From NCBI GenBank assembly GCA_937965695.1, contig CALCKW010000027.1, forward strand, positions 8,150-72,149: a stretch of 64,000 bases of DNA, read 5' to 3'. Of the stretch, positions 3,096-64,000 are shown one piece after another. The translations under genes and the position numbers were made by a program. The notes beneath the pieces are model-generated. The model was not told the origin of the DNA. It saw only the letters and a list, made by a program, of their open reading frames with translations, and did not search any database. Position 1 is the stretch's first letter, and the number at the start of each line of letters is the position of its first letter. Source of the DNA: an uncultured Granulosicoccaceae bacterium (GTDB taxonomy: Bacteria; Pseudomonadota; Gammaproteobacteria; CALCKW01).

Positions 3096-3151
3096 CAATG
3101 AGCTCCCCATACGCAAAGAAATCAGACAAATGCAACATAGAGACTAATCAC

Positions 3152-3967: not shown

Positions 3968-3997
3968 CAAAAAGAGAACGAATCACCGGGCCTTCTC

Positions 3998-5617: not shown

Positions 5618-5758
5618 TTAGAAAAGTGGAAATAGTAGAATCTGAATGTAGAGCTTAAAAGCGAGCAGTGTTCGATTCAACTAGCCGTGCCGAATGTCAA
5701 ATCAAAAACTAGTTCGCAATAAATTACAAACCCCACCGTCCAACCAACAGTGGGCTGC

Positions 5759-5921
5759 CTAGGGAGCCTCAGATTAAATTCGGTTAATGACATCGGCGTG
5801 AAAAAATTGCAACCAGCAAGACGAGTCGACGGCAGTATTGGTGCTCTAGACTAGATTTGCAACGCGGTTGGGCCGTATTTTGTGCGTCAATGGTGCGAGC
5901 ATGACTTGATCTGAGGTCCCC
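5759..5921 (+). mobile_element. MITE-like dispersed repeat, copy 1 (about 163 bp)
   Basis: Left end ctagggagcctcagattaa and right end ttgatctgaggtcccc form an imperfect terminal inverted repeat. Colinear with 63609-63775, sharing identical blocks gagcctcagatt, ctagatttgcaacgc and gcgagcatgacttgatctgag. Confidence 0.75.
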
Positions 5922-6490
5922 GGCCTTGCACGCTAGTTAGTAAGCCACACACTTACAGAGAGTTACTGTTGCACATTCTTCCGATAGCGAGAATTGCCGA
6001 AAGTAATAGGTTTGATACCGCATACTCCTACACTTCCAGGCATTTAAATTCCACGTAAAGGATCCACAATCCGGCTCACGTCTAATACTTCGTCAACCAA
6101 AAGCACGCTAATAGCCCTCGGTTTAGCCCCTAGGCAATAATCGATTTTTTCAGGTTACCTTAGAGCCAGTGAACAAGGTGAGAGTAGGAAGTTGTGAGCG
6201 CTGGTATTGCCCTCACCGACGTTTAGATGATCGCTGCCGCGACAGCCTCACGCATAGATTTTGTAAGACCGGTTAGCTTTCACGGACGTCAAAGAGCAAA
6301 GAAACACCTAGGGTACTGGACTGGCAGATCCATCAATCAGCAAACTCTTCAAAGCGAAAGCCCCTATCCATCCATCACGATGGAACAAGAACGATTTTAA
6401 CAACAGAAGAAAGAGATACTCTAATCGGCATACTTGGGCAGACAAGGAGCCTGATCACCTGACTGTCAGTATCAAATCTGTGCACTAGCC

Positions 6491-51524: not shown

Positions 51525-52349
51525 TCAAGGCATCTGACGAACTGTCGATTCGGTGAAACCGAGTTGACTAGCCAATTGGCGCAGATTGTCAATTCGCTGC
51601 TGCAGTTGAGGATGTGATTCGAAATAATGCAAGCCAGGAAGGTTTGATGAGCTATTCAGCTGAAGCTTTTCAAAGAACTCTGTCGCTCCTCCCACATGTC
51701 CATATCGGCACTGCAGCGCATTTAGGCCAACAACATCAGAGTCACTCTCCTGCCCCTGTGAATGCTGTGCCTGACCAAGCAGCATAGACGGGCTCAACAA
51801 CTGGCTAATGCCGGAGTTACCACCGAACATTGATCGGCTTACAACCCACAGCACGAGCCCTCGTCCAAGCCCACGCAAGTGATCGCGGTTGGCAAAATGC
51901 CCCAATTCATGGCCTAAGACAAAACTCAATGCGTTCTCAGAAAGACCGCTGTGCAATAGGCCCGTTGTCACCCACATTTGTCCACCGGGCACCGCAAAGG
52001 CATTCACCGCCTCATCTTCTTTGACCAGAAGCTTTATTTGGTAGGGCTGATCAACACAAGTCAGCAGCGGATCCAACAAAGCTTGTAATTGTTTTTGCTT
52101 GGCACTGTTCGTCTCTGGGCCTAACTCTGTCTCTGGATCTAACTCTATTGTCTCGCTAAATTGCTCCAGGAGGGCGCGCTCCGTTTTTGGATCGATCTGG
52201 GCTACCGCCCAATCGACCGCCAAACCGCTAAGCCAAACAACAATAAGAATTAACACAACAGCGGCGAGCATCAACGTAACAAATTCGCGCCCGGGTCGCT
52301 GGTGTGAAACGTTGTCATTGTGTTCGGGTAGACCAGGTTGATATTCCAT
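51525..52349 (-). CDS. M48 family metallopeptidase
   Basis: NAFAVPGG, HELGH zinc motif, E.ESD, SHP. Confidence 0.92.
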   Translation of the reverse strand: MEYQPGLPEHNDNVSHQRPGREFVTLMLAAVVLILIVVWLSGLAVDWAVAQIDPKTERALLEQFSETIELDPETELGPETNSAKQKQLQALLDPLLTCVDQPYQIKLLVKEDEAVNAFAVPGGQMWVTTGLLHSGLSENALSFVLGHELGHFANRDHLRGLGRGLVLWVVSRSMFGGNSGISQLLSPSMLLGQAQHSQGQESDSDVVGLNALQCRYGHVGGATEFFEKLQLNSSSNLPGLHYFESHPQLQQRIDNLRQLASQLGFTESTVRQMP

Positions 52350-52888
52350 TAATCGCCCGTAGGCCCAGAGCGAGACGGATGCGACGAAACAGCGATCGGT
52401 TCAGCATTCGCTGAGCCATCAGAGGTAGAATCGGAGTCGCTATTAAACAGGGCTGTGCCGTACGCAACCACTTCTACAGAGCCGATAGAGTTAGCACCAC
52501 GGTGTATAGACGCCGTCTCCATGCGTAAATTTATAATTTGCGCGGCACCTGGGCAAGATTCTTTCATCCGCAAAACTGCCTCACGGCGGGCACGATCCAA
52601 GAGTGTTTCGTAGGCTTGTACTTCGCCACCAAAAAAGGCCCGTAGTGCGGCCAACATCCGTTTAAAATAATCGACCGAGATCACCACACTGCCGCGTACT
52701 AAGACGCAATTTTGCACAGATATATCACCGATAGGCTGCTCACTACTGACAGTCGGCAAAGCCAAATAAAGCTGCTCTCGACGCTGAATGTCTTTGTAGT
52801 GCTTGGCTTCAGCTCTACGACCAAAGAAATATCCCAAACCCAGTAAAACCAACAAATAGCCGATATTAATCAGTACCTGATTACTCAT
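52349..52888 (-). CDS. YbjQ-family protein with N-terminal membrane anchor
   Basis: YETLLDRARREAVLRM, INLRMET, EVVAYGTA. Confidence 0.85.
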   Translation of the reverse strand: MSNQVLINIGYLLVLLGLGYFFGRRAEAKHYKDIQRREQLYLALPTVSSEQPIGDISVQNCVLVRGSVVISVDYFKRMLAALRAFFGGEVQAYETLLDRARREAVLRMKESCPGAAQIINLRMETASIHRGANSIGSVEVVAYGTALFNSDSDSTSDGSANAEPIAVSSHPSRSGPTGD

Positions 52889-52889
52889 T

Positions 52890-53207
52890 TCAGTCGGCTA
52901 CCGTTACAGCGGTACCGTAAACGTATATTTCGGCTGCACCCGCAGCAACAGAGGACGTAGAGAATCGCACATTAACCACTGCATTGGCTCCTAGCTGTGT
53001 CGCCTGTTGTTGCATCCGTTTTACCGCTTGCTCCCGAGACTCTTCAAGCAACTCTGTATACCCTCTGAGTTCACCACCAAAAATATTTTTTATACCTGCC
53101 ATAAAATCTCTTCCGGCGTGTTTCGTACGCACCGTACTTCCAGCCACAACTCCCTGACATGCAACGATTTGCTTTCCAGGAATCGTTTCTATATTTGTCA
53201 TCAACAC
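52890..53207 (-). CDS. YbjQ-family (UPF0145) protein
   Basis: GRDFMAGIKNIFGGELRGYTELL, GANAVVNVRF, YVYGTAV. Confidence 0.92.
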   Translation of the reverse strand: MLMTNIETIPGKQIVACQGVVAGSTVRTKHAGRDFMAGIKNIFGGELRGYTELLEESREQAVKRMQQQATQLGANAVVNVRFSTSSVAAGAAEIYVYGTAVTVAD

Positions 53208-53542
53208 GCGCTATCTCCCTCCTTAAAAACCTAAAACGGGCTAACCTAAAACCCTTATTCATTGGTGCACATCTAGACTATCCCACATCAACGCAGAACC
53301 GGCAAATAACCGCCTGACCGCACGTTTCATGAGCATAAGTATCTTGAGCATGTATTAGCTCGCTGCACGAATGTTCGTGGCTGCCGGTTGCCACATCCAT
53401 GGCAAGCGTCCACCTAAACGTTCGACCAACTGCCGCCCTGAATAAGACCGAATCCGCAGCACAGGGTCGCTACCGCGCAGGTCTGCAAATTGCCCTATTG
53501 AAAAACCATATTCACATTCTTACAAAAAGGGTTTTATTCAAT

Positions 53543-54445
53543 ATGCACTCTGATCCACGAGAGTTGGGACAATTTATTCCAGCGCACTATCACGCCAATA
53601 TGCTCAACGACGAAACACGCATGCGTGGTTTTCAAGAAGCGATTGATTACTTAGTTCCCGAGGGAGCTCGGGTGGTCGAGCTCGGTGGTGGCACTGGTGT
53701 GTTATCCCATTTTGCGGCACAACGAGCTTCGAAAGTATGGTGCGTTGAATTTAACCCAGATCTTATAAAAACGGCCAGCGTGTTGTTACCGCAAAATACT
53801 CGCGGTGACCGCATCGAGTTAGTCCATGCAAATGCCAACGACTGGCTCCCACCAGAGCCGGTAGATGTGGTGATCTGCGAAATGTTACACACCGGCCTTT
53901 TGCGAGAGCAGCAGGTAAACGTGATACATAATTTCAAGCAACGTTACACAGCACACTTTGGAGGTCCTCTACCGGCTTTTATTCCGGAGGCTTGCTTACA
54001 GGCAATCCAACCCATTGAACAAGACTTTGTCCATGAAGGTTTTTTTGCACCTTGCCTGCAGTTTCAATCACCGGTAACACAGCAAGCTCGGAGCCAAGAA
54101 AAAGGTCCACCTACTGTATTCCAAGCTTTTCGTTGGGATGAAAACATCCCCATGAACTGCTCCTTCGACAATGCCTTGCAGGTCGACCGAGATGGCCGCG
54201 TTAATGCAATAAGAGTCATCACTAAGAATTTATTAGCTATCGTAGAAGACCAGCAGCGAAGCATTGATTGGCACAACCAGTACCTGATTGTGCCGCTGCC
54301 TCAACCCATAGACGTTTGTGCTGGTGATAAGCTCGCCGTGTCATTCAGCTATGCGCCTGGAAGCCCACTAACTGCACTGACTCAGTCTCTAGATGTGCAG
54401 CGAATGGCTCAATATGCAAGCAACGCCCTCACTGCAGAAAACTGA
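53543..54445 (+). CDS. SAM-dependent methyltransferase, protein-arginine-methyltransferase-like
   Basis: MLNDETR, VVELGGGTG, WCVE, VDVVICEMLHTGLLRE. Start 53543 (MHSDP) preferred over 53399. Confidence 0.75.
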   Translation: MHSDPRELGQFIPAHYHANMLNDETRMRGFQEAIDYLVPEGARVVELGGGTGVLSHFAAQRASKVWCVEFNPDLIKTASVLLPQNTRGDRIELVHANANDWLPPEPVDVVICEMLHTGLLREQQVNVIHNFKQRYTAHFGGPLPAFIPEACLQAIQPIEQDFVHEGFFAPCLQFQSPVTQQARSQEKGPPTVFQAFRWDENIPMNCSFDNALQVDRDGRVNAIRVITKNLLAIVEDQQRSIDWHNQYLIVPLPQPIDVCAGDKLAVSFSYAPGSPLTALTQSLDVQRMAQYASNALTAEN

Positions 54446-54480
54446 TTTTGATCGTTGTGTTTTGTCTGCGGATGTTCCAG

Positions 54481-56100
54481 TCAAGGTCGACTGAACATCC
54501 CAACAATTCCGACTTCAACTTCTGCTTTGTCTAGAAGTGGTTTTAACAAAGTCATCACGCGCAGCGACGCGCGGCTGCCGTCTAATTTCTCCAAGGCTTT
54601 GATCAGTTGCGGCTGAGCTTTTTGAAAAACGAGCGCAATCATGTGGTCTTCGCCTAACGGTTCAGAGACTCGCAATGGCATAGACCACTGCCGCCGACCG
54701 TAGCGCACGGGATCACCATACTTAGTCAAAGGGTAAACTAGCTGCACCGTGCCGTCACCAGCTACGTTCAATACAATCAGAAAATCGCCAGACTGCTCTG
54801 AAAAAAAAGGTTCAATCCGAGTCCCAATGGTATGGCTAGACGAACTCGGCAAAAGGTCCGCGCGCAATAACTTTCGACGCGCAGCATTTTTTAACATCTC
54901 CATCGATACACGTTTCTCAAGTGCGCCACTCAGCGCCTTTTGTAACGTTTCCACGTTTGAACCCAAAAGCCCAGTGGCGACTAAGTCCCCTGCACTGGAC
55001 AACAAATCACCACTCTGGCTATGCAAAATAAAATCTGCATTTTTAACGCTCTGTACCCACTGCAAACCGACTATCGCACCGGCCAATTTTTGCTTTGAGC
55101 TGTCAGCTAGATCATAGCTGTAGACATGATGTTGGGTACGAACACCTACAACAGCTGGCCTTATGCTTTCACGCGTCAGTGCAACAACAGCTTGATTGGG
55201 TTGCGCTAAGGGACTCAATTCAGGTGTCTGCTGCCGTTCAGAAAGCAGGCTAACATTCTCTAAGATGTAGTGACGCAGCTCCGCGCGAGTAAGCACAAGA
55301 TCCCCGTCTGCATCGGCTTCACCTTCGAGGGCCCTGGCAAAAACAAAACTCAATGCACCGCGAGTGTCGGACTCTCCATCTACCGATTTAACAAATATTT
55401 CCGGGATTTCTTGGCTCTCCAGGCCCGCGCTTAAAAAAGTCAAATAGGGGAGATCCTGTTTATCTAACTTCGCCACTTGCGGTTCTATTTCTACCGTTAA
55501 CTCTGCTTCTAGTCCTTGTTCAAAGTCGATATCAACCAAACGGCTCTGCAGGGACTGAAAGCGGGGATCCGCAGCGCGCGTCATCGTTCCGGAGTGACAC
55601 GAGTCCGCTACAAAAAGTACCTGCACGCCCTTTCCTTCAGCAGCACTGAACCATTCGTACAGTTGATTATCTCGGATAATTTCGCGCTGACCTGCCCGGG
55701 TGTTCGCGTAGCCATTTAAAACAAAAACATCATCTAGCCCGTCAGCCTCAGACCCAACAACCGATTCTGGCACGCGGCTTCCGTGACCGGCATAGCTAAA
55801 AACAAGTGTGTCGCCGGGACTTGATCGCTCCAGCATTGCAAACCACTGCTGCTTTATAGCATTGTGGTTCGCCTGTTCATTCAACAGCACGGATACAACA
55901 CTATCAGGTAGTTTATCCAGACTGGCAGCGATATCGTTAGCATCGTTAACGGCACCTGCTAGTGGCGGTAGACTCTGATACTCGTTGACGCCCAGGACAA
56001 GAGCATGGATTCTGGCTTCAACGGCTGAAACCTTCAGACTAAAAAGTAGTATAAGCAATACCCGCCACGGGTTACTTATTTGCACTTTTGCACAAATCAA
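54481..56100 (-). CDS. Exported caspase-family (peptidase C14, metacaspase-like) protein with C-terminal DUF4384-like domain
   Basis: Signal peptide, ALVLGVNEY, LAGAVNDA, YAGHG, DSCHSG. C-terminal LIVLNVAGDGTVQLVYP..PLGEDHM. Confidence 0.88.
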   Translation of the reverse strand: MICAKVQISNPWRVLLILLFSLKVSAVEARIHALVLGVNEYQSLPPLAGAVNDANDIAASLDKLPDSVVSVLLNEQANHNAIKQQWFAMLERSSPGDTLVFSYAGHGSRVPESVVGSEADGLDDVFVLNGYANTRAGQREIIRDNQLYEWFSAAEGKGVQVLFVADSCHSGTMTRAADPRFQSLQSRLVDIDFEQGLEAELTVEIEPQVAKLDKQDLPYLTFLSAGLESQEIPEIFVKSVDGESDTRGALSFVFARALEGEADADGDLVLTRAELRHYILENVSLLSERQQTPELSPLAQPNQAVVALTRESIRPAVVGVRTQHHVYSYDLADSSKQKLAGAIVGLQWVQSVKNADFILHSQSGDLLSSAGDLVATGLLGSNVETLQKALSGALEKRVSMEMLKNAARRKLLRADLLPSSSSHTIGTRIEPFFSEQSGDFLIVLNVAGDGTVQLVYPLTKYGDPVRYGRRQWSMPLRVSEPLGEDHMIALVFQKAQPQLIKALEKLDGSRASLRVMTLLKPLLDKAEVEVGIVGMFSRP

Positions 56101-57032
56101 TGGGCGGGCGCCAATCTAATCAACTCAACTCGACGGTTGAGCTGCCAGCGTTGCTCAGTGCTGTAGGCTCCGGCACTGCTAAGAACCAAGGGCTGACTTT
56201 CGCCCCTTCCACTCGCTTGGACATCCAGCTGCAAGCCTTTTCCGAGTAACCACTGCTGCACTTTCTCAGCACGCGCTAAGGACAATGCCAAATTGTATTT
56301 TTCACTACCGCGCTCATCCGCATGTCCAATGATTTCTATCGCGCTAGTATTCTGATTCCGCAGTGCTAGAAACAGTGCCTCAGCGGCCTTAGCACCTTGT
56401 GGGCTAAAATCGGTACTGCCCGTTTTAAAGCTAATAGGCAAAGGCGCACGTTGCACGCTAAATCCACGCACCGTCTCAGCTAACACTCCGCTGGCAACAC
56501 CTCGCACTTGCGGTGGCGGCACAAACTCGTCGGCCAAAAGCAGCGATTCAGCAGCCAATTGATGAATGGATTCAATGGTTTTCTCAGAAGGCGCTGTTGG
56601 TGTTTCAAAACTATCGTCGATAAGCGCTAACGCTCGTTGAAGACGACGCGCCGCCAGGCCGTATCGACCAGCGCCATGATCTCGAGACCCTAAGAAGCTA
56701 AGCGCGCGCCAGGTAGGTGCAATTGTTTCAGAAAGCTCAAGCAGTTGATCAACGTCTGATTCCGCCATGTCAGCGTCAACGCCTTTGTAGGCCACGCTAA
56801 ACAATCTGTTGGCCGTGGCACGGCGGGCCTTATGTTTCTGTGTGGCACTGCAACGGTTACTGACATTGAATATCTCAAATGCTTTAGAGATGGCCGCTAC
56901 ATCAATTAAAGACGCCGCTTGGTTAAATGCTTTTAGCTGAGATTGGCAATCACTTGCTAGCACTTGCTTGTTTAACGACAACAACATCAGTGCACAGCTT
57001 AAAGCCAAAATCCTTGAGTTAAAGATGATCAC
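56097..57032 (-). CDS. Exported OmpA-C domain protein with N-terminal helical (TPR-like) region
   Basis: Signal peptide, ISFKTGS, IIGHADERGSEKYNLALSLARA, NRRVE. Confidence 0.85.
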   Translation of the reverse strand: MIIFNSRILALSCALMLLSLNKQVLASDCQSQLKAFNQAASLIDVAAISKAFEIFNVSNRCSATQKHKARRATANRLFSVAYKGVDADMAESDVDQLLELSETIAPTWRALSFLGSRDHGAGRYGLAARRLQRALALIDDSFETPTAPSEKTIESIHQLAAESLLLADEFVPPPQVRGVASGVLAETVRGFSVQRAPLPISFKTGSTDFSPQGAKAAEALFLALRNQNTSAIEIIGHADERGSEKYNLALSLARAEKVQQWLLGKGLQLDVQASGRGESQPLVLSSAGAYSTEQRWQLNRRVELIRLAPAH

Positions 57033-57949
57033 CCACCCTGCCCCAGCAAACCATTCGCCATTTCACAAAGAGCTACTCGGCTGTTTGGCAGTGGCTTCTT
57101 CAAGCGCAGTGTCAAAAAATGTTGCTTAGAAAAATCGTCTTCCATTAGGTCTTTTAAGGTTTCCGCCTGCTGCTGCCAAAAATCTTTATCCGAAGCATTT
57201 ACTTGGCAAGCAAGGGCTGTCACCAAGCTCCAGCTCCCGAGAGCTTGGTTGCGTATCGCTTGCTCAGAGCAATCGCCATCGGTACTTTCTTCGCAGCTGA
57301 TTATTTTTGGCAAAGCTTTTTGCCAATCGTTCCAACGCGGGTCACTGATATCAGTCACTTTAGCCGCCGCCGCTGACAACCCCAATTGAAACTGTCGCTT
57401 GTCGTGGTTCGTCGCGCTGGCATTCAATGACTGTATAGATTTAGTCATGCGGGCGAGAACAGGAGGAAACTCGGCACCCAGCAGCTGTTCTGCACTGCCG
57501 AGCTGTTGTTGAAAAGCCCTGGACGCTATGTCGGAGGAAGGAGAAAAAATCATTGGCACCATCACAACAGCAAATAATCCTGCCGCAACTGCAGCACCCC
57601 AGCCAGAACTTATATTTAGTGGAATACGTGAAATCAGCTTCCCCGCCCATGTGGAGGTCTCAGTAACGTCAGCAGAGCTGCCTGGCTTTGGTTGGTCTTC
57701 CCTAGGACCTGTTGCATCGAAATCGTTTAACCAGCGCTGCTCAGCACACAAATCTCGCCATTGGCCGTAACATAACTCGTCGTTCGCGACATAGCTGAGC
57801 ACTTCATCGGCCCGCTGCTCTCCCAATGTCCCTAGCCGCCATTGATCAATTTCATGCAGATCCGGCCGCTCGCCACGCACGGAGCCCTGCATAAGTTTTG
57901 AGGCCGCTTGGGCAAAAAGCCACGCTCGCCTTCGCGATTCGGTATTCAT
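57029..57949 (-). CDS. Putative single-pass anti-sigma-factor-like protein
   Basis: N-terminal RPDLHEIDQWRLGTLGEQRADEVLSYVANDELC resembles a degenerate zf-HC2/ZAS domain. One TM segment (WGAAVAAGLFAVVMVPMIF). Directly downstream of a sigma-like gene. Confidence 0.55.
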   Translation of the reverse strand: MNTESRRRAWLFAQAASKLMQGSVRGERPDLHEIDQWRLGTLGEQRADEVLSYVANDELCYGQWRDLCAEQRWLNDFDATGPREDQPKPGSSADVTETSTWAGKLISRIPLNISSGWGAAVAAGLFAVVMVPMIFSPSSDIASRAFQQQLGSAEQLLGAEFPPVLARMTKSIQSLNASATNHDKRQFQLGLSAAAAKVTDISDPRWNDWQKALPKIISCEESTDGDCSEQAIRNQALGSWSLVTALACQVNASDKDFWQQQAETLKDLMEDDFSKQHFLTLRLKKPLPNSRVALCEMANGLLGQGG

Positions 57950-58040
57950 ATTAAGTCCCTAGTGCCTGCCATTGAGCGGCATTTCAACTTCACCTTGTTG
58001 CTAACGTACGGCAAACGCGCCAATGACGGTTGACACAAGT

Positions 58041-58889
58041 TCACAGGGGAAAAATATCCAACATGACCGCCAGTACTTTTTTACGACGACTGCGAATCTG
58101 CGGCACGCTAAGACCTAAGTCTTCGGCGATTTCGCGCTCTGTTGGCTCTCGCTCACTGTCACACAGTACCCCCAACCCTCGACCTAAATAGGCATTCAAA
58201 ACCAATCGGTCGTGATCATCCAGACCTAATTCACTCCAAGATTCCTCCGCCAATTGGTGCATGCGTTGGCGGTCTACTTCACCACTGATTTCAGCAGCAC
58301 CAACCAGTGACTCGATGAAATGGCGCATTTGATCAAAAGCGACCTCATCTTCCGGCTGCAGTTGATCCGACCCCAGCCCTGCAAAAGGAGATACCGAATC
58401 CTCGTCATCGCTGCTCTCCCGCGCCATCTGTCGGTGCCATGGCGAGCATTCCTGTACTTCTTGCATTTGATCAAAAATGCTAACGGCCATAGCTTGCGCC
58501 GCTTCTATACTCGGCGCATCCCCAGGTACCCGCCCCAACTTTTTTGCTTGTTCGCTTACCCAAGCGTCTAACTCACTGCGCTTGCGCCCTTGCAAACAAA
58601 TAACCTTAAAAAGTTTTTTGCCTAACTCACCTAAATCATCAAGCCATTTTCGAGGCCTAGGAAAGCCGTGTCGCTCACGCACACAATCGGTGAGCGCATT
58701 TTTAAAAACAGAAAGTATTAACGCATCAGTAGCTTCAGCTTCCGCATAATCACTGAGCTTCATTGCCGTCATTGAAGCTGCGTCCTCAGCCAAGGTCTGG
58801 TAATCCTCCAGATGGCCGTACAAAGCGTTCGCCCTACCCAAAAAGCGATTCGACCACTGGCTGGAATACAGCTTTTCAATCCAATCCAT
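58041..58889 (-). CDS. Atypical ECF-like sigma-70 factor
   Basis: Sigma2-like AEDAASMTAMKL and SVFKNALTDCVR. Sigma4-like HTH LDDHDRLVL..EREIAEDLGLSVPQIRSRRKKVL. Start 58889 (MDWIEK) preferred. Confidence 0.6.
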   Translation of the reverse strand: MDWIEKLYSSQWSNRFLGRANALYGHLEDYQTLAEDAASMTAMKLSDYAEAEATDALILSVFKNALTDCVRERHGFPRPRKWLDDLGELGKKLFKVICLQGRKRSELDAWVSEQAKKLGRVPGDAPSIEAAQAMAVSIFDQMQEVQECSPWHRQMARESSDDEDSVSPFAGLGSDQLQPEDEVAFDQMRHFIESLVGAAEISGEVDRQRMHQLAEESWSELGLDDHDRLVLNAYLGRGLGVLCDSEREPTEREIAEDLGLSVPQIRSRRKKVLAVMLDIFPL

Positions 58890-59155
58890 TATCTGACACC
58901 GAAGATCCTTAAACACCGGCCTTGCGACAAGACCAATAGCAATCCACAAATCTAAGGGATCTTTGCATCACATGCAAAACAATTTGAGCAGTCATTAAAT
59001 GAATGCTGGCGCAGGTGGCCATATCAGCGCTCTGAACGACGGTTCGTGAACGTTGGCTTGGTCGAGGGCGTTTGTCTGGTCAAACAGCCTGCACGGTCTA
59101 GAGATAAACGCGATGGCTATTTACAAATAGCGGATAGCGGTGTGGACAACAAGCG

Positions 59156-60736
59156 CTAACGCATCACGACGTCTAGGGCAGGTTCAAAAATTTGGTCCAA
59201 GGCCCGATTCGTCGCTCTAGCCAATCCGGCTTCACCTTGGAAATAGTATTTTTTACTAAACGTTTCCGCGTTGCCCACAGAAAACACAAGCTGCAATTCT
59301 CCAGCTGAGTTGTCGTCACGCATACGAACCACCACGCCCATCATGCCTTGCTCGTCATGCGTCTGATAACGATAGACCTCTCGATCAATACCGTACTTAG
59401 AGCGTTTACGTTTTATCCAACCGCCGGAACTGCGTTCAGTGGTGAGCAGCTGGCCATCTAAGCCATGACTAGCGAGGCGATCAAACAGTTCTTTCTTCAC
59501 CGCCCCTGTGACTTCGCTTTCACTACTGAAATTGACTTCCCAGTGCATTGCAGCGCCCAATACTTTTGTCGGGGCAACTCCGACGCGAATACTGGCTTGC
59601 TGATTTTCAACGGTACTGACGTTGGCCGCTAAACCGAGTTCTGCGTCAACTAACGACTGCCGCAGTTGCAACGCAGAAGTGACAAAGCGGCCGTCGGGGT
59701 ATTTGCGCAAATATTCTTCGTAGCCGGCCACGCTTGGCTTTTCGAGTGCTTCCTGCCAGAACAATAACTCAGCACGGAGTTCGAAGTCACTGGCTATCGC
59801 CTCCGGTGAAGCGTCCTCCGGACTCACTGGCTGTAGCGGATTGACAAGTGAGCTAAAAACGACATCACCACGAGACAGGGCATAGTCGTTGATTTTGCCG
59901 TGCTGTGGCGTCTGACTCGCGAAGGGGACATTCTGAGTCAAATGCAGCCCCAATTCTGTGCTAGTCACGTATCCGTCACGGTTTAAGTCAGCCGCACCGG
60001 ACTCAAAAGAATCAACAAATGCCCGTGTGAACGCACTCTCAGCGGGGACTGTTTCATTGGCACTACCCGATGTAATGAAGTAGCGCACAGGCTTTTCCAA
60101 CAAACCTTCTAAAGAGCGGCCGCTGCTTGAAGCAAAGCCACGCGACTGGAAAATCGACCCTGAGAAGCAACTATCAAACACAAACATCGCATGCTTAGAT
60201 TGAATCTCCTTGGCCATTGCCATCACCCGATTCATCGACAAAGCCCTAGTAATAAAGCCGTGTTTATCACTGCTGTAGGGCGGTGCGTCTGCGGGTACCA
60301 GGTAGCCCATGGATTGTTGTTCTGAGAGCTGGATCGTCTCTCCGTGGCCAGCAAAATAGACCAACAGTCGATTATTTGGATCTCCCCCCTTATCGACAGC
60401 AAAATCACTCAAACTGCTCAGCAGCTCTTGGCTAGATACATTGCTTAGCGTCTCTACCTCAAACCCCTGGCGCTGTAACATACGCTCTACTGAGGCCAGC
60501 TCATGTGGGATGCTCGGTAACTTGTCCCATGCGGGGTGCGTGTATTCGCTGTTCCCAATAAGCAGCGCGTAGCTGGCACTGTAGTGATCTGACAACTGAG
60601 GGCCAACGGCACCCACACCCGCGATACGCGCAACGCCACGCGTTTCTACCCCAGCGGTAGCAAGGCTTGAAATGAAGTACAGAGCGGCAGCGAAAAGACA
60701 GATAAATCTTCGCCACAAAGTTACCCTAGCAATCAT
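59156..60736 (-). CDS. Exported caspase-family (peptidase C14) protein
   Basis: Signal peptide, YALLIGNSEY, YFAGHG, FDSCFSG, DLNRDGYVTSTEL, FWQ..Y..YLRKYPDGRF. Start 60736 (MIARV) preferred over 60775. Confidence 0.88.
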   Translation of the reverse strand: MIARVTLWRRFICLFAAALYFISSLATAGVETRGVARIAGVGAVGPQLSDHYSASYALLIGNSEYTHPAWDKLPSIPHELASVERMLQRQGFEVETLSNVSSQELLSSLSDFAVDKGGDPNNRLLVYFAGHGETIQLSEQQSMGYLVPADAPPYSSDKHGFITRALSMNRVMAMAKEIQSKHAMFVFDSCFSGSIFQSRGFASSSGRSLEGLLEKPVRYFITSGSANETVPAESAFTRAFVDSFESGAADLNRDGYVTSTELGLHLTQNVPFASQTPQHGKINDYALSRGDVVFSSLVNPLQPVSPEDASPEAIASDFELRAELLFWQEALEKPSVAGYEEYLRKYPDGRFVTSALQLRQSLVDAELGLAANVSTVENQQASIRVGVAPTKVLGAAMHWEVNFSSESEVTGAVKKELFDRLASHGLDGQLLTTERSSGGWIKRKRSKYGIDREVYRYQTHDEQGMMGVVVRMRDDNSAGELQLVFSVGNAETFSKKYYFQGEAGLARATNRALDQIFEPALDVVMR

Positions 60737-60768
60737 CGGCTCTTTCCAATCTGACTCGTGCGCTAAGT

Positions 60769-62145
60769 CTAACACCCAGAGGCTGCGCAGACAGTCAATA
60801 CGAGGGCACTCGCGTCGACGCTTTCATCGGGAGACAGCGCTAAGGCCTGCAAGCGTTCAAAGTCAGCGGTCTCCGGCCGCAGAAACACACCTAAAGGCTC
60901 GCCTCGCGCATCGCGTTGATGGCTTGACGCAAAGAGGTTTATTCGCTGCTGACTGACAACACTAACAATTAGCGAATCACCAAAAGGTCGACCAGCGGGC
61001 CACTCAAATCCTTTTTTGGGTAAATTAATCACCCCTGCCTCAAATTGATTATCGTGATGGTATTCATTGGGGAACAGCACGACTACCTGGTCATCCGAAT
61101 TAACCGCAACAATATTTAGATAACCTGCTGTAGGCATCTCCACTTCCAGTTCCAACAACTGACCTTGATCGTAATATTCGCGCGAGGGTTGCACTTGCAA
61201 TGGCGCACTGTGTTTGACCAGCGAAGACCAATCATCCCACGCTGGATGCAATTGTCTCGCTTGGCCAGCTTCTGCGACAAAAAGGCCTTTATCCTGCAAC
61301 AAAATCGGATCACCTATGAGGCTAGGATGAAATCGAAATTTTTGCGGCACACTGCTCATTACGGTTTTCTCCGCCGCAGCAATCAATTGAAAGGGATCGC
61401 CATTTCTGCCCTCTCTTACTGCCTGCTGTAGCGCAAGTGTGAAAACACTGCCTCGGTTTGTCGCCAGAGACTGTTCGCCGTCTTGTGCCGCCGCCAAAAA
61501 AACCATGCCCTCTACAGACTCGGCATCGGCAAACCCGGCCGCAGAGTCTGTTTGTGTTGAGCGGCAGCGTCGAGACTTAACGACGAATTCACCTTGGCCA
61601 TAAGCGCTCTGCGTCAATGAATGGCTGCGTACAGCCGTGCCACTACAACAGGCATCTACCACGACCGCAATACGCTCACTGGGGATGGCGGACAGCAATT
61701 GATTAAATTCATCATCGCGAAGAACACCCGAATATTCACCGTTCGAGAATGCCAGATTATGCATGGTCAAAACTTCATCAAAACCATCGCGTTCATCACC
61801 GTTTTGATCCGGCACTTGAGAACCGTGGCCGCTGTAATAGACAAGCACACGATCTTCAGCCGATATATCTTCGAGCAACCACGTGCTCATCACCTCGCGG
61901 ACATTTTCGCTAGTCACTTCCGAGTCACGCAATAAACGGATGTTTTCTTCCAAGTAGCCCATTTCAAGCGCCACCCCTTGCATAACTTTTAAATCTAGAG
62001 ATATACCCGGGAGGTTATTCTCTGCACTGGCGTACTCTCCTACCCCTATCAACAACGCTTTGTCAGCTGCAGCAACCGGCAACGCTAGGGTAATAGTCGC
62101 GGCAAAACTAGTTGCGATGATGCATCTAAGCACGCGAAGAAACAT
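60769..62145 (-). CDS. Exported metacaspase-like peptidase C14 with C-terminal DUF4384-like domain
   Basis: Signal peptide MFLRVLRC..VAAA, ALLIGVGEY, YYSGHG, DQNGDERDGFDE, DACCSG. C-terminal YLNIVAVNSDDQVVVLFPN..PFGDSL. Start 62145 or 62154 preferred over 62436. Confidence 0.88.
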   Translation of the reverse strand: MFLRVLRCIIATSFAATITLALPVAAADKALLIGVGEYASAENNLPGISLDLKVMQGVALEMGYLEENIRLLRDSEVTSENVREVMSTWLLEDISAEDRVLVYYSGHGSQVPDQNGDERDGFDEVLTMHNLAFSNGEYSGVLRDDEFNQLLSAIPSERIAVVVDACCSGTAVRSHSLTQSAYGQGEFVVKSRRCRSTQTDSAAGFADAESVEGMVFLAAAQDGEQSLATNRGSVFTLALQQAVREGRNGDPFQLIAAAEKTVMSSVPQKFRFHPSLIGDPILLQDKGLFVAEAGQARQLHPAWDDWSSLVKHSAPLQVQPSREYYDQGQLLELEVEMPTAGYLNIVAVNSDDQVVVLFPNEYHHDNQFEAGVINLPKKGFEWPAGRPFGDSLIVSVVSQQRINLFASSHQRDARGEPLGVFLRPETADFERLQALALSPDESVDASALVLTVCAASGC

Positions 62146-62230
62146 GGTGTGCATCCTTAATTTTGGTAATACATGCCGTGGAAGTGCCTGCGATGCGAAA
62201 CGCAACGCAGGTGCCGCGATCATTTTTTTC

Positions 62231-63508
62231 TCAGCGTACATTGAGATCAACCCCCTGCAACAAATGGCTGGCCCACTGCTGATCAGGTAGACCTTGCAGC
62301 CCCTTCCAAAACACATTGAAGTCTCCCCCATGCCTCGGCAATTCAACACCGTCAGCCGTCCAAACAACCCAGGCTGCGGAATCGGCGTGGTCGACAGCAC
62401 GCAGTCGGCCCATACGAGTTTCACGATATTCACCATGATGCCATCGACTGGATTGGGGCCTTAGCTGTAATTCACTGTGAGCCGCTGTCACTGAGACCGC
62501 AGTAATCCAACCGGGCTCGGCAGAGATCGCGGCTAAGCTCGAGCGGTCCGATTGCTGCTGAATTTTTGTCAGAAATCGATCCTCAGCGGTGCATTTATAC
62601 AACAGCGACACTCCACGCATAGCGCTTGAGCTGCCACCTAATGGTCGAATAGCCGGTGCAAAATCTCCATCAAATTGAGGCCATTGCACACCACCGGTTT
62701 CATCGCGAACCTGCGCTCGTGCTCGTTGAAACCAACACCAGGCGTTGTCTTGTTCAGCTGCCATCTGTGCATTAAACAGTGCACGTGTAAAAACGCTACC
62801 GGATTCGTCAATATCTGCCAGCTCACCGTCAGCCGCTGCGGACAGCAACAATACACCAGGTTGAGACAATTCATCGAGCGAGTTAGCGGATGTAGTCGTC
62901 GACTCGCTGCGAAGCCAAGACGGCATTTGAATAAACTTACCCACTCTAGTTATTGCTTCACCGATATCATCTGACAGAGATTTGCTTATGGTGCCGCTAT
63001 GACAGGTGTCAGCGATGATGACTTTTCGATGATTTGGTAAAGCCGCTAGCATTTCTGCCAATTGGTCATCCAACAATGCACCACTCACTTCTACATCTTC
63101 GCCAGCCTTACCGATAGAAAAATCTGCCAACGCCATCGCCTCATCACGGCCATCCATTTCGTCCCCATTTTGATCATCCAACTGCAAACCGTGCGTAGAT
63201 AGATACAAATAAAAAATATCTTCCGGTTGCAGCTCATCGACAAATTGACGCATCCGCAATACCACCGCATCAAGCGTTGCCTGCTCGTTATAAAGCTGAG
63301 TGATATCTCTTTCACTGACACCCAGCCGGAGCATGATTTCTTTAGCCTTTTTCAAATCTTGATCAACGCCAAGAATATCCAATTGCTGATCTTGGTAATC
63401 ACCGACCCCTACAAGCAAAGCCACAGAGCGCGCCTCAGCGATTCCAGTCCAGAGGCCAAGCGCTGCAAAAGCCATAAAAAACTGCCAAACGATTGATTTA
63501 TGCAGCAA
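62231..63508 (-). CDS. Exported metacaspase-like peptidase C14
   Basis: TTG start at 63508 with AGGAG RBS, signal peptide ending IAEA, ALLVGVGDY, YLSTHG, DQNGDEMDGRDE, DTCHSG. Confidence 0.87.
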   Translation of the reverse strand: MLHKSIVWQFFMAFAALGLWTGIAEARSVALLVGVGDYQDQQLDILGVDQDLKKAKEIMLRLGVSERDITQLYNEQATLDAVVLRMRQFVDELQPEDIFYLYLSTHGLQLDDQNGDEMDGRDEAMALADFSIGKAGEDVEVSGALLDDQLAEMLAALPNHRKVIIADTCHSGTISKSLSDDIGEAITRVGKFIQMPSWLRSESTTTSANSLDELSQPGVLLLSAAADGELADIDESGSVFTRALFNAQMAAEQDNAWCWFQRARAQVRDETGGVQWPQFDGDFAPAIRPLGGSSSAMRGVSLLYKCTAEDRFLTKIQQQSDRSSLAAISAEPGWITAVSVTAAHSELQLRPQSSRWHHGEYRETRMGRLRAVDHADSAAWVVWTADGVELPRHGGDFNVFWKGLQGLPDQQWASHLLQGVDLNVR

Positions 63509-63608
63509 CGTGACGCTCCTCTCTCCAAATGGGTATCCACACCAACAGTGTAACGAACCTAGCAACAGCTTTTGCGATGCCGTTGACCAACTCAGGAGAT
63601 TGAACCAG

Positions 63609-63775
63609 TAAAGAGCCTCAGATTTAATGCGGTCAGTGACGTCGGCGTGTAAAATTTGGACCCAGCGAGGCTCGAATCGACGGCAATATTGATGCTATCG
63701 GCTAGATTTGCAACGCAGCTGGGCCGAATTTAGCGCGTCGACGGGGCGAGCATGACTTGATCTGAGATTTCCTAG
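63609..63775 (+). mobile_element. MITE-like dispersed repeat, copy 3 (about 167 bp)
   Basis: Colinear with 5759-5921. Right end ttgatctgagatttcctag overlaps the TAG stop of the upstream minus-strand ORF. Confidence 0.75.
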
Positions 63776-64000
63776 TAATGAATGAGCGATTCAGACAACA
63801 ACTGAACGGATGGCTGAGAGACCGCATTTGCACTATCCATCAGCTGTATCAAGTCTCCAAACTGGGGCGCATTTCCGGTGGCTGGCTTTATTTTTTCACA
63901 AGACGGATCACTTGCTGGTACATCGGCTAATAGTTTCAACAAGGATTCAGCAGAAGCATTTTCTGGCAGAGCAACAAGATGAAAGGTCTCCACCCCTGCG
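63772..64000 (-). CDS. Hypothetical protein, 5' part outside the window
   Basis: Frame is open from the window edge (..AGVETFHLV..) to the stop at 63772. Same strand as the caspase genes. Confidence 0.6.
   Translation of the reverse strand, partial: AGVETFHLVALPENASAESLLKLLADVPASDPSCEKIKPATGNAPQFGDLIQLMDSANAVSQPSVQLLSESLIHY

What the first reader, a model, noticed from the sequence alone, without database searches (positions are those of the whole stretch)
54481..64000. Candidate new system: four exported caspase-fold proteases clustered with an ECF-like sigma, an anti-sigma-like protein and an OmpA-domain protein
Seen: four peptidase C14 genes on one strand (62231-63508, 60769-62145, 59156-60736, 54481-56100). 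Each has an intact His-Gly and Asp-x-Cys dyad (STHG/DTC, SGHG/DAC, AGHG/DSC, AGHG/DSC) and a Sec-type signal peptide. They flank a sigma-like gene, a single-TM anti-sigma-like gene and an exported OmpA-C gene, and the last three genes overlap by 4 bp. Established: the characterised bacterial caspase-like proteases (those activating gasdermins, the type III-E CRISPR TPR-CHAT with Csx30/RpoE) act in the cytoplasm, while many ECF anti-sigma factors are released by extracytoplasmic proteolysis (DegS/RseA). Inference: this is a periplasmic metacaspase cascade that senses an envelope or contact signal and clips the anti-sigma, activating a dedicated regulon. I do not know of a characterised system with this composition.
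Basis: partly seen in the sequence, partly recalled or inferred. Interest (0 to 1): 0.88.

Follow-up and report, generated by a model that had tools for sequence, protein, structure and literature searches.

The report
Cell-wall-tethered exported caspases with dedicated sigma switch
A marine gammaproteobacterium encodes four caspase-like proteases that appear to be exported to the cell envelope, next to a cell-wall-binding partner and an unusual sigma/anti-sigma pair. The same pairing recurs in several unrelated bacteria, so it is a real but untested envelope module, and whether the proteases trigger the switch or are switched on by it is still open.

Summary
Four Peptidase_C14 genes with intact His/Cys dyads and signal-peptide-like N-termini flank a sigma-like gene, a single-pass membrane protein and an OmpA-domain protein. 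The last three genes overlap by 4 bp.

The locus joins two modules.
- **Widespread module.** An OmpA-type partner sits directly upstream of a ~530-aa exported caspase (C14-D) in 28 of 47 informative metagenome loci. A second caspase-DUF4384 gene often follows. A sigma gene is almost never present (1 of 35 loci).
- **Rare regulatory pair.** The sigma-like protein has a sigma-70-family fold but is not a classical ECF sigma. The membrane protein belongs to a family whose N-terminus is a zinc-less derivative of the zf-HC2 anti-sigma domain. Outside Granulosicoccaceae this pair lies beside C14 or CHAT proteases in at least four other genera from two classes.

The anti-sigma ectodomain has a near-universal [TS]-[RK]-[SGA]-[LIM] loop about 33 residues outside the membrane. 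I favour caspase-mediated site-1 cleavage there (about 0.4). The rival, that the caspases are simply the regulated output, is nearly as likely (about 0.33).

Metacaspase operons containing OmpA or sigma genes were catalogued in 2012, and DdvA/DdvS is a fused precedent. This is a new variant, not a new category.

The parts
63772..64000 (-). 3' part of a 260-aa exported protein with a weak DUF4384-like domain. The gene runs to window-equivalent position 64554, beyond the window. It is the first gene of the cluster, downstream of leuD.
   Evidence: ORF L002:1922-2704. DUF4384 E 0.07 over 75 of 81 profile positions. Homologues at the same place in L004 and L034, 35% identity.
63613..63776 (.). Copy of a ~165-bp interspersed repeat lying between the DUF4384-like gene and C14-A. 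It is not part of the system's coding content.
   Evidence: At least 40 copies at 81-89% identity across the genome's contigs. No Rfam match and no inverted repeat.
62231..63508 (-). C14-A: exported caspase-fold protease of 425 aa with dyad STHG/DTCHSG. It is a paralogue of C14-B found only in this family.
   Evidence: PF00656 65.3 bits. Dyad columns. TTG start with a GGAGAGAGGAG ribosome-binding site and signal-like MLHKSIVWQFFMAFAALGLWTGIAEA|R. Orthologues only in Granulosicoccaceae-type loci.
60769..62145 (-). C14-B: exported caspase plus DUF4384, 458 aa, dyad SGHG/DACCSG. It is the counterpart of the second caspase-DUF4384 gene that follows C14-D orthologues in other taxa.
   Evidence: PF00656 76.2 bits and PF14326 52.5 bits. 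Signal-like MFLRVLRCIIATSFAATITLALPVAAA|D. Best match among the window's four caspases to the downstream paralogues elsewhere, about 28% identity over 440 aa.
59156..60736 (-). C14-C: exported caspase of 526 aa, dyad AGHG/DSCFSG, with an EF-hand-like loop (DLNRDGYVTSTE) and a C-terminal region of unknown fold. Found only in this family.
   Evidence: PF00656 63.6 bits, weak CHAT and EF-hand_5 matches. Signal-like MIARVTLWRRFICLFAAALYFISSLATA|G. The orthologue is split into two ORFs in L004.
58041..58889 (-). Divergent sigma-70-family protein of 282 aa. It has a sigma-2-like N-terminus (VFKNALTDCVRER), a helical insert of about 130 aa with an acidic disordered loop, and a sigma-4 helix-turn-helix.
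   Evidence: Sigma70_r4 and r3 only weak; TIGR02937 20.9 bits against a cut-off of 42.9. An AF2 model (pLDDT 72.6) gives almost only sigma factors among the Foldseek top 50, with top-ranked probabilities 0.9-0.99. Homologues in G219 and G422 pass the Sigma70_r4 cut-off.
58890..59155 (-). 266-bp intergenic region upstream of the sigma gene. It is the probable promoter or operator region of the sigma-to-C14-D operon and contains a conserved AAATC-N5-GATTT inverted repeat at 58948-58962.
   Evidence: Alignment of five orthologous upstream regions. The motif is not enriched elsewhere in the window. No sigma-70-type promoter was found.
57029..57949 (-). Single-pass membrane protein of 306 aa. It has a cytoplasmic four-helix N-domain related to zf-HC2 anti-sigma domains but lacking the zinc ligands, a TM helix at about 113-139, and a periplasmic helical domain with 4 invariant Cys and a T169-K170-S171-I172 loop.
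   Evidence: Hydropathy. Family alignments. 149 relatives at E<=1e-3 among 1.84 billion representative proteins. 3 of 64 relatives hit PF13490, and the motif aligns with HxxxCxxC. K/R at position 170 in 62 of 64; pLDDT below 50 at 169-179.
56097..57032 (-). Periplasmic peptidoglycan-binding partner of 311 aa: signal peptide, an unannotated N-domain of about 190 aa with two invariant Cys, and OmpA_C. It is translationally coupled to both neighbours.
   Evidence: PF00691 54.4 bits. Full-length orthologues at 32-40% identity sit upstream of C14-D orthologues in Chromatiales, Azospirillaceae and metagenomes. GTGA and TTGA overlaps.
54481..56100 (-). C14-D: exported metacaspase-type protease of 539 aa, dyad AGHG/DSCHSG, with an EF-hand-like loop (DADGDLVLTRAE), a middle region and a DUF4384-like tail. 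It is the core protease of the widespread module.
   Evidence: PF00656 49 bits. 181 full-length homologues at E<=1e-5. The 24-sequence alignment has invariant H106 and C168. DUF4384 is recognised by Pfam in several homologues.

Best explanation
The locus combines two modules.

**Module 1: a conserved, uncharacterised envelope unit.**
- A periplasmic protein with a novel disulfide-bonded N-domain and an OmpA_C peptidoglycan-binding domain is made in fixed ratio with an exported metacaspase-type protease (C14-D).
- C14-D carries an EF-hand loop and a DUF4384 tail, and is probably held at the cell wall by the OmpA-type partner.
- A second caspase-DUF4384 paralogue (C14-B) belongs to this module. 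C14-A and C14-C are additions specific to this family.

**Module 2: a rare regulatory pair.**
- A divergent sigma-70-family protein is paired with a single-pass anti-sigma whose cytoplasmic domain derives from the zf-HC2 anti-sigma domain.

**Most likely mechanism.**
1. At rest the anti-sigma holds the sigma at the membrane.
2. An envelope signal activates the wall-tethered caspases, which probably cut after Arg or Lys.
3. One of them cuts the anti-sigma ectodomain at the conserved T-K/R-S-I loop about 33 residues outside the membrane. This is a site-1 cut.
4. An RseP-type intramembrane protease and cytoplasmic proteases finish the job.
5. The freed sigma transcribes its own operon, and so more caspase, plus unknown targets.

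**Shown:** gene content, dyads, topology features, conservation of both modules and their repeated co-location.

**Inferred:** export, complex formation, Arg/Lys specificity, the cleavage site and the direction of signalling.
For: - **Linkage of the pair to caspase-fold proteases.** The A7 anti-sigma profile finds loci in G219 (two), G104, G318 and G422. Each has the A1-type sigma adjacent wherever the contig allows. Each also has C14 or CHAT genes in the same cluster, together with OmpA or PG_binding proteins, DUF4384 and DUF3160.
- **Not chance.** All 6 class-sample genomes with A7 carry PF00656, against 82 of 401 overall. With 1-7 C14 genes per genome of about 4 Mb, chance adjacency within 10 kb is at most about 3.5%.
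- **Within the genus.** Sigma gene and C14 genes are present or absent together in 3 of 6 genomes.
- **Anti-sigma identity.** Gene order directly after the sigma, a single TM, a four-helix N-domain, zf-HC2 hits in 3 of 64 relatives, and alignment of the motif with HxxxCxxC.
- **Sigma identity.** Foldseek returns almost exclusively sigma factors. Two homologues pass the Sigma70_r4 cut-off.
- **Candidate cleavage site.** K/R at position 170 in 62 of 64 family members, flanked by T/S and a small residue then L/I/M, in a loop with pLDDT below 50. One relative encodes a trypsin-like protease directly after the anti-sigma. As a class, trypsin-like enzymes often cut after Arg or Lys.
- **Complex formation.** The 4-bp overlaps anti-sigma/OmpA/C14-D imply co-translation.
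- **Periplasmic location.** Four invariant Cys in the ectodomain and two in the OmpA N-domain fit disulfide bonding in the periplasm.
- **Precedent.** DdvA carries a periplasmic CHAT domain proposed to act as its own site-1 protease (PMC11506125).
Against: - The OmpA/C14-D(/C14-B) module occurs without this sigma/anti-sigma pair in 34 of 35 informative metagenome loci. Sigma-70 families are not among the 25 commonest Pfam families of its neighbours. Cutting this anti-sigma therefore cannot be its ancestral job.
- Relatives of the pair sit beside different protease classes: C14, CHAT, M48-TPR and trypsin-like. In G418 there is no protease on the 11-kb contig. That pattern fits 'regulated cargo' at least as well as 'dedicated site-1 protease'.
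- The upstream caspases are dispensable: absent in L003 and split in L004.
- Foldseek gave no significant hit for the anti-sigma model.
- Arg/Lys specificity rests on my recollection of metacaspase S1-pocket residues, not on a test.
Confidence: 0.4

Rival explanations
1. Output model. The sigma/anti-sigma pair is only an expression switch. The anti-sigma ectodomain senses the signal itself or is cut by a housekeeping protease. The freed sigma then turns on the co-encoded wall-tethered caspases, which act on other envelope substrates such as the cell's own proteins during stress or death, surface or secreted proteins, or invaders.
For: - The OmpA/C14-D/C14-B module is widespread and almost always lacks this pair. 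The pair therefore looks like a regulator added to an existing effector module.
- The pair accompanies varied cargo: C14, CHAT, M48-TPR, trypsin-like proteases, two-partner-secretion proteins and peptidoglycan-binding proteins.
- Sigma, anti-sigma and caspase lie in one probable operon, which gives simple autoregulated expression.
Against: - It does not explain the near-universal basic residue in a flexible juxtamembrane loop of the anti-sigma.
- It does not explain the translational coupling of the anti-sigma to the OmpA partner and caspase.
- No shared promoter motif was found upstream of the other caspase genes, although the promoter is unknown.
Confidence: 0.33
2. Envelope-triggered defence or programmed-death system. 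The exported caspases are latent killers, or processors of a killer, released on phage attack or contact. The sigma pair gives an early-warning transcriptional arm, as proposed for DdvA/DdvS. This reading overlaps both models above and differs only in the biological role.
For: - The locus is accessory: 3 of 6 genomes of the genus carry it.
- One relative of the pair lies next to nSTAND1-TPR and TPR-S/cyclase genes typical of conflict systems.
- All four caspases give sub-threshold hits to the EACC1-associated caspase model.
- DdvA/DdvS controls a CBASS-CRISPR defence island (PMC11506125).
Against: - PADLOC gives only generic caspase and OmpA-like (ZorB) matches.
- No known defence genes lie nearby. 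The flanks are leuCD, a methyltransferase, YbjQ and M48 genes.
- NF047832 scores are far below its cut-off: 28.7-78.2 bits against 140.
- No mobile-element genes were seen.
Confidence: 0.15
3. No functional link. The sigma/anti-sigma pair and the caspase genes are merely neighbours kept together by synteny in one family.
For: - All direct homologues of the sigma gene found by word search are from one family and sit at the same chromosomal place.
Against: - Profile searches find the same pair beside C14 or CHAT genes in at least four other genera from two classes, in different chromosomal contexts.
- 6 of 6 A7-positive genomes carry C14, against a 20% background.
- The genes overlap by 4 bp.
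Confidence: 0.05

Closest known systems
[quoted passage not shown]
   Same: - A sigma held by a single-pass anti-sigma with a zf-HC2-type cytoplasmic domain.
- A caspase-fold module on the periplasmic side.
- A proposal that the caspase-fold module performs the site-1 cut before RseP acts.
   Different: - In DdvA the CHAT domain is fused to the anti-sigma, has TPR repeats and an incomplete active site, and binds zinc.
- Here the proteases are separate exported Peptidase_C14 proteins with complete dyads.
- The anti-sigma ectodomain here is a small helical domain with four conserved Cys, and the zinc ligands are lost.
- An OmpA-type wall anchor is part of the set.
- No CBASS or CRISPR regulon is evident.
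Sigma-E/RseA/DegS/RseP regulated intramembrane proteolysis (from my own knowledge of E. coli)
   Same: - The overall logic of an extracytoplasmic site-1 cut of a single-pass anti-sigma.
- The candidate site lies about 30 residues outside the membrane, similar to the DegS site in RseA as I recall it.
   Different: - The site-1 protease would be a cysteine protease of clan CD rather than a PDZ serine protease.
- The sigma has an insert of about 130 aa and fails the ECF models.
- The protease genes are in the operon.
Metacaspase operons containing OmpA or sigma-70 genes, catalogued by Asplund-Samuelsson et al. 2012 (PMC3501461)
   Same: That survey noted three things:
- Metacaspases with N-terminal helices that are probably signal peptides.
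- OmpA domains in 14 metacaspase operons.
- Sigma-70 genes in metacaspase operons of Myxococcus, Anaeromyxobacter, Haliangium, Sorangium, Ralstonia and Fibrobacter.
   Different: - It was a domain-level tally without mechanism.
- It did not define the orthologous OmpA-partner/C14-D pair, the anti-sigma family or the combination of all three.
- I did not test whether its sigma genes are related to this one.
Cytoplasmic protease-to-sigma defence cascades: Craspase (Csx29) with Csx30/RpoE, CalpL-CalpT-CalpS, and EACC2-caspase systems with an ECF sigma (PMC10028731, PMC12642450, PMC8195603)
   Same: A protease linked to release or control of an ECF-type sigma. In Craspase the protease has a caspase fold.
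   Different: - Those systems act in the cytoplasm and are triggered by CRISPR effectors, cyclic nucleotides or NTPases.
- This locus has no such sensors, and its proteases carry export signals.
Orthocaspases and bacterial metacaspases (for example MaOC1; reviews PMC6426788, PMC7475262)
   Same: - Peptidase_C14 p20-type domain with a His-Cys dyad and the DxCHSG motif.
- DUF4384 is a known accessory domain.
   Different: - As far as I know, the members studied so far are cytoplasmic enzymes.
- The proteins here are exported, paired with a peptidoglycan-binding partner and carry EF-hand-like loops.

Membership tests
Peptidase C14 (clan CD, caspase/metacaspase fold) | Pfam PF00656 match above the gathering score | tested here: met
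   All four proteins score 49-76 bits against a cut-off of 21.4.
Peptidase C14 (clan CD, caspase/metacaspase fold) | Catalytic His and Cys in the conserved H-G and D-x-C-x-S-G motifs | tested here: met
   Invariant columns in the four-way alignment and in 24 C14-D homologues.
Peptidase C14 (clan CD, caspase/metacaspase fold) | Proteolytic activity and P1 specificity (Arg/Lys for metacaspases) | not testable with these tools
   Conserved acidic residues (D53, D178 in C14-D) sit where I recall metacaspase S1-pocket Asp residues. This is a lead from memory only.
ECF (group 4) sigma factors | Match to the ECF model TIGR02937 and to Sigma70_r2 (PF04542) above their cut-offs | tested here: not met
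   TIGR02937 scores 20.9 bits against 42.9. No Sigma70_r2 hit in any of 11 family members.
ECF (group 4) sigma factors | Two-domain architecture (sigma-2 and sigma-4 with a short linker, about 170-200 aa) | tested here: not met
   The protein is 282 aa, with a helical and acidic insert of about 130 aa between the sigma-2-like and sigma-4-like parts.
Sigma-70 superfamily | Sigma-4 helix-turn-helix recognisable by sequence | tested here: inconclusive
   The window protein is below cut-off (13.9-14.1 bits against 24.1). Homologues in G219 (29.3 bits) and G422 (28.8 bits) are above it.
Sigma-70 superfamily | Sigma-factor fold | tested here: met
   The Foldseek top 50 are almost all sigma factors (SigA, sigma-S, FliA, sigma-32, SigB, WhiG), with top-ranked probabilities 0.9-0.99. 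E-values are only about 1e-2 and TM-scores 0.2-0.3.
Class I (zf-HC2/ZAS-type) transmembrane anti-sigma factors | N-terminal anti-sigma domain detectable by homology | tested here: inconclusive
   The window protein and its 9 close relatives have no Pfam hit. 3 of 64 remote relatives hit PF13490 (best E 3.9e-5). The family motif aligns with their HxxxCxxC. Foldseek is not significant: RslA at rank 49, E 7.8.
Class I (zf-HC2/ZAS-type) transmembrane anti-sigma factors | Zinc ligands HxxxCxxC | tested here: not met
   The window protein has N56 and only one Cys in that stretch (VANDELCYGQW). Most of the family lacks the ligands.
Class I (zf-HC2/ZAS-type) transmembrane anti-sigma factors | Single TM helix, and a gene directly downstream of its sigma | tested here: met
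   One hydrophobic segment at 113-139. The gene follows the sigma-like gene here and in G219, G104, G318 and G418.
Class I (zf-HC2/ZAS-type) transmembrane anti-sigma factors | Binds and inhibits its sigma | not testable with these tools
   No complex prediction or experiment was available.
OmpA_C-like peptidoglycan-binding proteins | PF00691 above the gathering score | tested here: met
   54.4 bits against 27.2. The N-terminal part of about 190 aa matches no family but is conserved in orthologues.
DdvA/DdvS-type system | TPR-CHAT domain fused to the anti-sigma ectodomain | tested here: not met
   The ectodomain is about 170 aa, helical, with no CHAT or TPR match. The proteases are separate genes.
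EACC1-associated caspase systems | NF047832 above its cut-off and an EACC1 partner | tested here: not met
   Scores are 28.7-78.2 bits against a cut-off of 140. No EACC1-like gene is in the locus.
Known anti-phage defence systems (PADLOC 2.0) | Specific match of the component set | tested here: not met
   Only the generic caspase model and the OmpA-like part of ZorB match.

The most novel reading that the evidence does not exclude
Bacteria possess an extracytoplasmic caspase signalling pathway. Caspase-type proteases tethered to peptidoglycan by a dedicated OmpA-type partner are activated by an envelope cue. They then cut a dedicated anti-sigma at a conserved [TS]-[RK] loop, turning a proteolytic event in the periplasm into transcription through a previously unclassified sigma family. 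The same sigma/anti-sigma chassis has been coupled to C14, CHAT, trypsin-like and M48 proteases in different lineages.
Probability: 0.3. Interest if true: 0.85.

Novelty: new variant of a known kind. Interest (0 to 1): 0.62.

Why it matters
The function of most bacterial caspase homologues is unknown, and the characterised ones work in the cytoplasm.

This locus gives a compact and testable case of exported caspases:
- four proteases with complete catalytic dyads;
- a defined candidate partner, the OmpA-type protein;
- a defined candidate substrate, the anti-sigma, with a specific candidate site at T169-K170;
- a transcriptional read-out through the sigma.

If the cleavage model holds, caspase-fold enzymes would join the proteases that start regulated intramembrane proteolysis, and a new sigma/anti-sigma family would be defined.

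If the output model holds, the pair offers a genetic handle to switch on a widespread envelope caspase module (OmpA partner, C14-D, C14-DUF4384) whose role is unknown in many Proteobacteria.

Tried and rejected
- **PDB sequence search, sigma.** A profile of the sigma family gave only a spurious RIO1 kinase hit.
- **hhalign, sigma.** Comparing the sigma alignment with single sigma sequences of the same genome gave probabilities below 1%. The test had little power and my ORF picking was crude.
- **Foldseek, anti-sigma.** The model (pLDDT 63) gave nothing significant. A PDB profile search with the 64-sequence family gave nothing either.
- **Word-index searches.** Searches with the sigma and the anti-sigma found only family members. 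Taken alone this would have suggested mere synteny. The full HMM search overturned it.
- **Genome-contig scan.** The scan with the sigma alignment found only two Granulosicoccaceae MAGs.
- **Shared promoter or operator.** The conserved AAATC-N5-GATTT element upstream of the sigma gene is not repeated upstream of the caspase genes and is not enriched in the window. No sigma-70-type promoter was found.
- **Empty site.** I looked for the empty site in genus members lacking the locus. The flanking methyltransferase lies in a different neighbourhood in G002, so no clean insertion boundary could be drawn.
- **Library screens.** PADLOC gave only generic domain hits and Rfam gave none.
- **One cascade of four equivalent caspases.** I rejected this reading because A and C are confined to this family, A-C are absent in L003, and C is split in L004.

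Full report
**1. What is in the sequence**

- **Caspase genes.** Pfam places all four candidates in Peptidase_C14 above the curated cut-off. C14-B also matches DUF4384, and the OmpA gene matches OmpA_C.
- **Dyads.** A four-way alignment has invariant H-G and D-x-C-x-S-G columns, so every catalytic dyad is intact.
- **Signal peptides.** The pattern is conserved across 24 homologues of C14-D. No signal-peptide predictor was available, so export is an inference from these features.
- **Overlaps.** The membrane protein/OmpA and OmpA/C14-D junctions are GTGA and TTGA overlaps.
- **Clustering.** The four genes are the only PF00656 matches in the 4.78-Mb assembly, so the cluster is not a chance grouping.
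- **Flanks.** Reading beyond the window (contig C27) shows one more exported gene with a weak DUF4384 match upstream of C14-A, then leuD and leuC. On the other side lie a convergent methyltransferase, two YbjQ genes and an M48 peptidase.

**2. The sigma-like gene**

By sequence it is only faintly sigma-like.
- Sigma70_r4 has E 0.04. TIGR02937 scores 20.9 bits against a cut-off of 42.9. There is no region-2 hit and no PDB sequence match.
- The alignment of 11 family members shows an N-terminal stretch (AEDAASMTAMKL...VFKNALTDCVRER) that reads like ECF regions 2.1-2.3, and a C-terminal helix-turn-helix.
- An AlphaFold2 model (pLDDT 72.6) returned almost nothing but sigma factors among the top 50 Foldseek hits. 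These were aligned over 270-290 columns with top-ranked probabilities of 0.9-0.99, but weak E-values and low TM-scores.
- Two remote homologues found later pass the Sigma70_r4 cut-off.

I conclude that it belongs to the sigma-70 superfamily but fails the tests for a classical ECF sigma. It is 282 aa with a helical and acidic insert of about 130 aa.

**3. The 'anti-sigma'**

The protein and its close relatives hit no Pfam or NCBIfam family. Foldseek on its model was not significant.

Its architecture fits an anti-sigma:
- a cytoplasmic helical N-domain;
- one TM helix at about 113-139;
- a periplasmic domain of about 170 aa with four invariant Cys.

A full HMM search of 1.84 billion representative proteins found 149 relatives, 57 of them below 1e-10 and mostly full-length at about 300 aa.
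- Three of 64 relatives hit zf-HC2 (PF13490), the anti-sigma zinc-finger family.
- In those three, the family motif P.L.EI..WR.G.L...RA.EVLSHVA.DP.C..QW.DL aligns with a canonical HxxxCxxC.

The family is therefore best read as a zf-HC2-derived anti-sigma domain that has mostly lost its zinc ligands. This is remote homology, not proof of sigma binding.

**4. Two modules, not one**

*Close relatives.*
- Close homologues of the sigma gene exist only in Granulosicoccaceae: 12 proteins in the 5.8-billion-protein set and two MAGs among 185,579 species genomes.
- In every context the order sigma, membrane protein, OmpA, C14-D is kept at the same chromosomal place.
- The upstream caspases vary. One relative has none of them. 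Another has an added DUF3160 gene and a split C14-C.
- Within the genus, the three genomes that carry the sigma gene are exactly the three that carry any C14 gene.

*The widespread module.*
- C14-D has 181 full-length homologues at E<=1e-5, and those below the family's own top hits are 29-39% identical. They come from Chromatiales, Azospirillaceae, Hyphomicrobiaceae, Stappiaceae, Magnetococcales and others.
- They share invariant dyad residues, an EF-hand-like DxDGDG loop and a DUF4384-like tail.
- In three unrelated contexts the gene directly upstream is a full-length orthologue of the OmpA partner, including its unannotated N-domain with two invariant Cys.
- In 73 unique metagenome loci, the partner is directly upstream in 28 of 47 with enough flank. 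A second caspase-DUF4384 gene is directly downstream in 22 of 47. The sigma/anti-sigma pair is present in 1 of 35, and that one is a family member.
- That second gene is closest to C14-B.
- Among 96 neighbouring ORFs the common families are Peptidase_C14, DUF4384, FGE-sulfatase, CsgG and TPR. No sigma-70 family is among the 25 commonest.

The widespread unit is therefore OmpA partner, C14-D and a C14-B-like gene.

**5. The sigma/anti-sigma pair recurs with caspase-fold proteases**

The 64-sequence anti-sigma profile was found in 6 further genomes of 400 Gammaproteobacteria and 3 further genomes of 401 Pseudomonadota. The contexts are set out below.

| Genome (locus) | Gene order around the pair |
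|---|---|
| G219, locus 1 | DUF3160, sigma homologue, anti-sigma, trypsin-like protease, two PG_binding_1 proteins, an 875-aa C14, the OmpA partner, a C14-D orthologue |
| G219, locus 2 | anti-sigma, C14-DUF4384, TPR-CHAT |
| G104 | DUF4384 protein, OmpA, sigma homologue, anti-sigma, C14, a TpsB transporter, a 1617-aa protein |
| G318 | sigma homologue, anti-sigma, M48-TPR, a TPS exoprotein, TPR-CHAT |
| G422 (another class) | sigma homologue divergent from C14, a small gene, anti-sigma, C14 |
| G547 | helix-turn-helix gene of sigma-like length (not matched by the A1 profile), anti-sigma, M48-TPR |
| G418 | nSTAND1-TPR, TPR-S/cyclase, then the pair; no protease on the short contig |

All six class-sample genomes with the anti-sigma carry C14 genes, against 82 of 401 overall. 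With 1-7 C14 genes per genome, chance adjacency is at most a few percent. The link between this regulatory pair and exported caspase-fold proteases is therefore real.

**6. How it may work**

The anti-sigma ectodomain has K or R at window-protein position 170 in 62 of 64 family members. It is preceded by T/S and followed by a small residue and then L/I/M. The motif lies in a loop predicted with pLDDT below 50, about 33 residues past the membrane.

Supporting points, some from memory only:
- Metacaspase-type enzymes cut after basic residues. I rely here on recalled S1-pocket positions, which C14-D conserves (D53, D178).
- Trypsin-like proteases as a class often cut after Arg or Lys, and one sits directly after the anti-sigma in G219.
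- The distance from the membrane resembles the DegS site in RseA as I recall it.

Together with the translational coupling of anti-sigma, OmpA partner and C14-D, this makes caspase-mediated site-1 cleavage my preferred model, at about 0.4.

The main rival is that the pair merely controls expression of the caspases as cargo, at about 0.33. It is favoured by the independence of the OmpA/C14-D module elsewhere and by the variety of protease classes found beside the pair. A defence or cell-death role is possible under either model, but nothing tested here gives it specific support.

**7. Comparison with what is known**

- DdvA/DdvS has a periplasmic TPR-CHAT domain fused to a zinc-binding anti-sigma and proposed to cut itself (PMC11506125).
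- ECF54 sigmas have CHAT and other peptidase genes in their context (PMC8999054).
- EACC2-caspase systems are linked to ECF sigmas (PMC8195603).
- Craspase/Csx30 and CalpL/CalpT/CalpS are cytoplasmic protease-to-sigma cascades (PMC12642450).
- Asplund-Samuelsson et al. listed OmpA in 14 metacaspase operons, sigma-70 genes in metacaspase operons of several genera, and probable signal peptides on many metacaspases (PMC3501461).

None of these defines the orthologous OmpA-partner/C14-D pair, this anti-sigma family or their combination, and none has been tested. I rate the locus a new variant of a known kind.

Other agents of this scan noted similar sigma/anti-sigma/exported-caspase and caspase/OmpA operons in other genomes. 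I treat those notes as leads, not as evidence.

**8. Limits**

- There was no signal-peptide predictor and no complex prediction.
- Contexts outside the family number fewer than ten.
- The sigma and anti-sigma assignments rest on fold similarity and remote homology.

Noticed in passing
window 63613-63776: An interspersed repeat of about 165 bp lies between the DUF4384-like gene and C14-A. It has at least 40 copies at 81-89% identity on many contigs of the genome. It has no Rfam match and no terminal inverted repeat.
   Followed up: partly
window 58948-58962 (minus strand), and L004, L006, L034: An AAATC-N5-GATTT inverted repeat lies about 60-110 nt upstream of the sigma start codon and is conserved in four of five orthologous loci. 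It may be an operator. It is not found upstream of the caspase genes.
   Followed up: partly
window 53200-64000: The consensus scan found no sigma-70-type promoter in 10.8 kb, where shuffles give 9.3 +/- 3.0.
   Followed up: no
window 53399-54445 (+): A class I methyltransferase lies convergent to C14-D. It is always adjacent in the Granulosicoccaceae loci but sits in a different neighbourhood in a genus member that lacks the caspase locus. Another first-stage note calls it PRMT-like.
   Followed up: partly
window 51525-53207 (-): Two YbjQ-family genes and an M48 peptidase form a tight operon that is conserved next to the locus in all family contexts. In two distant relatives an M48-TPR protease directly follows the anti-sigma homologue. 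The window's own M48 gene shows no evidence of linkage to the locus.
   Followed up: no
L004:7058-8599: The C14-C orthologue in a Granulosicoccaceae MAG is split into ORFs of 188 aa and 332 aa. It is probably a pseudogene or an assembly error.
   Followed up: no
L132 (G418:C184) 6-6188: A homologous sigma/anti-sigma pair lies directly downstream of an nSTAND1-TPR NTPase and a TPR-S/nucleotide-cyclase gene. Both are components typical of conflict systems.
   Followed up: no
L125 (G104) 329-6402; L126 (G318) 2095-7041: Two-partner-secretion genes sit in the same clusters as the sigma/anti-sigma pair and caspase-fold proteases. These are a ShlB/FhaC-type transporter plus a 1617-aa protein in one locus, and a TPS-domain exoprotein in the other.
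   Followed up: no
L011, L013, L036, L038, L062, L086, L089, L094, L101, L105: A gene of 1070-1200 aa often lies next to the OmpA-partner/C14-D pair, either divergent or directly upstream. The collection's precomputed Pfam hits annotate it as WD40 beta-propellers plus PDZ in L011 and WD40 plus Peptidase_C14 in L013. The window's locus has no such gene.
   Followed up: no
L128 (G049:C1 about 2430000-2435300): Short fragments matching the sigma, the anti-sigma (110 aa) and C14 profiles lie together in a complete genome. They look like a decayed copy of the module.
   Followed up: no
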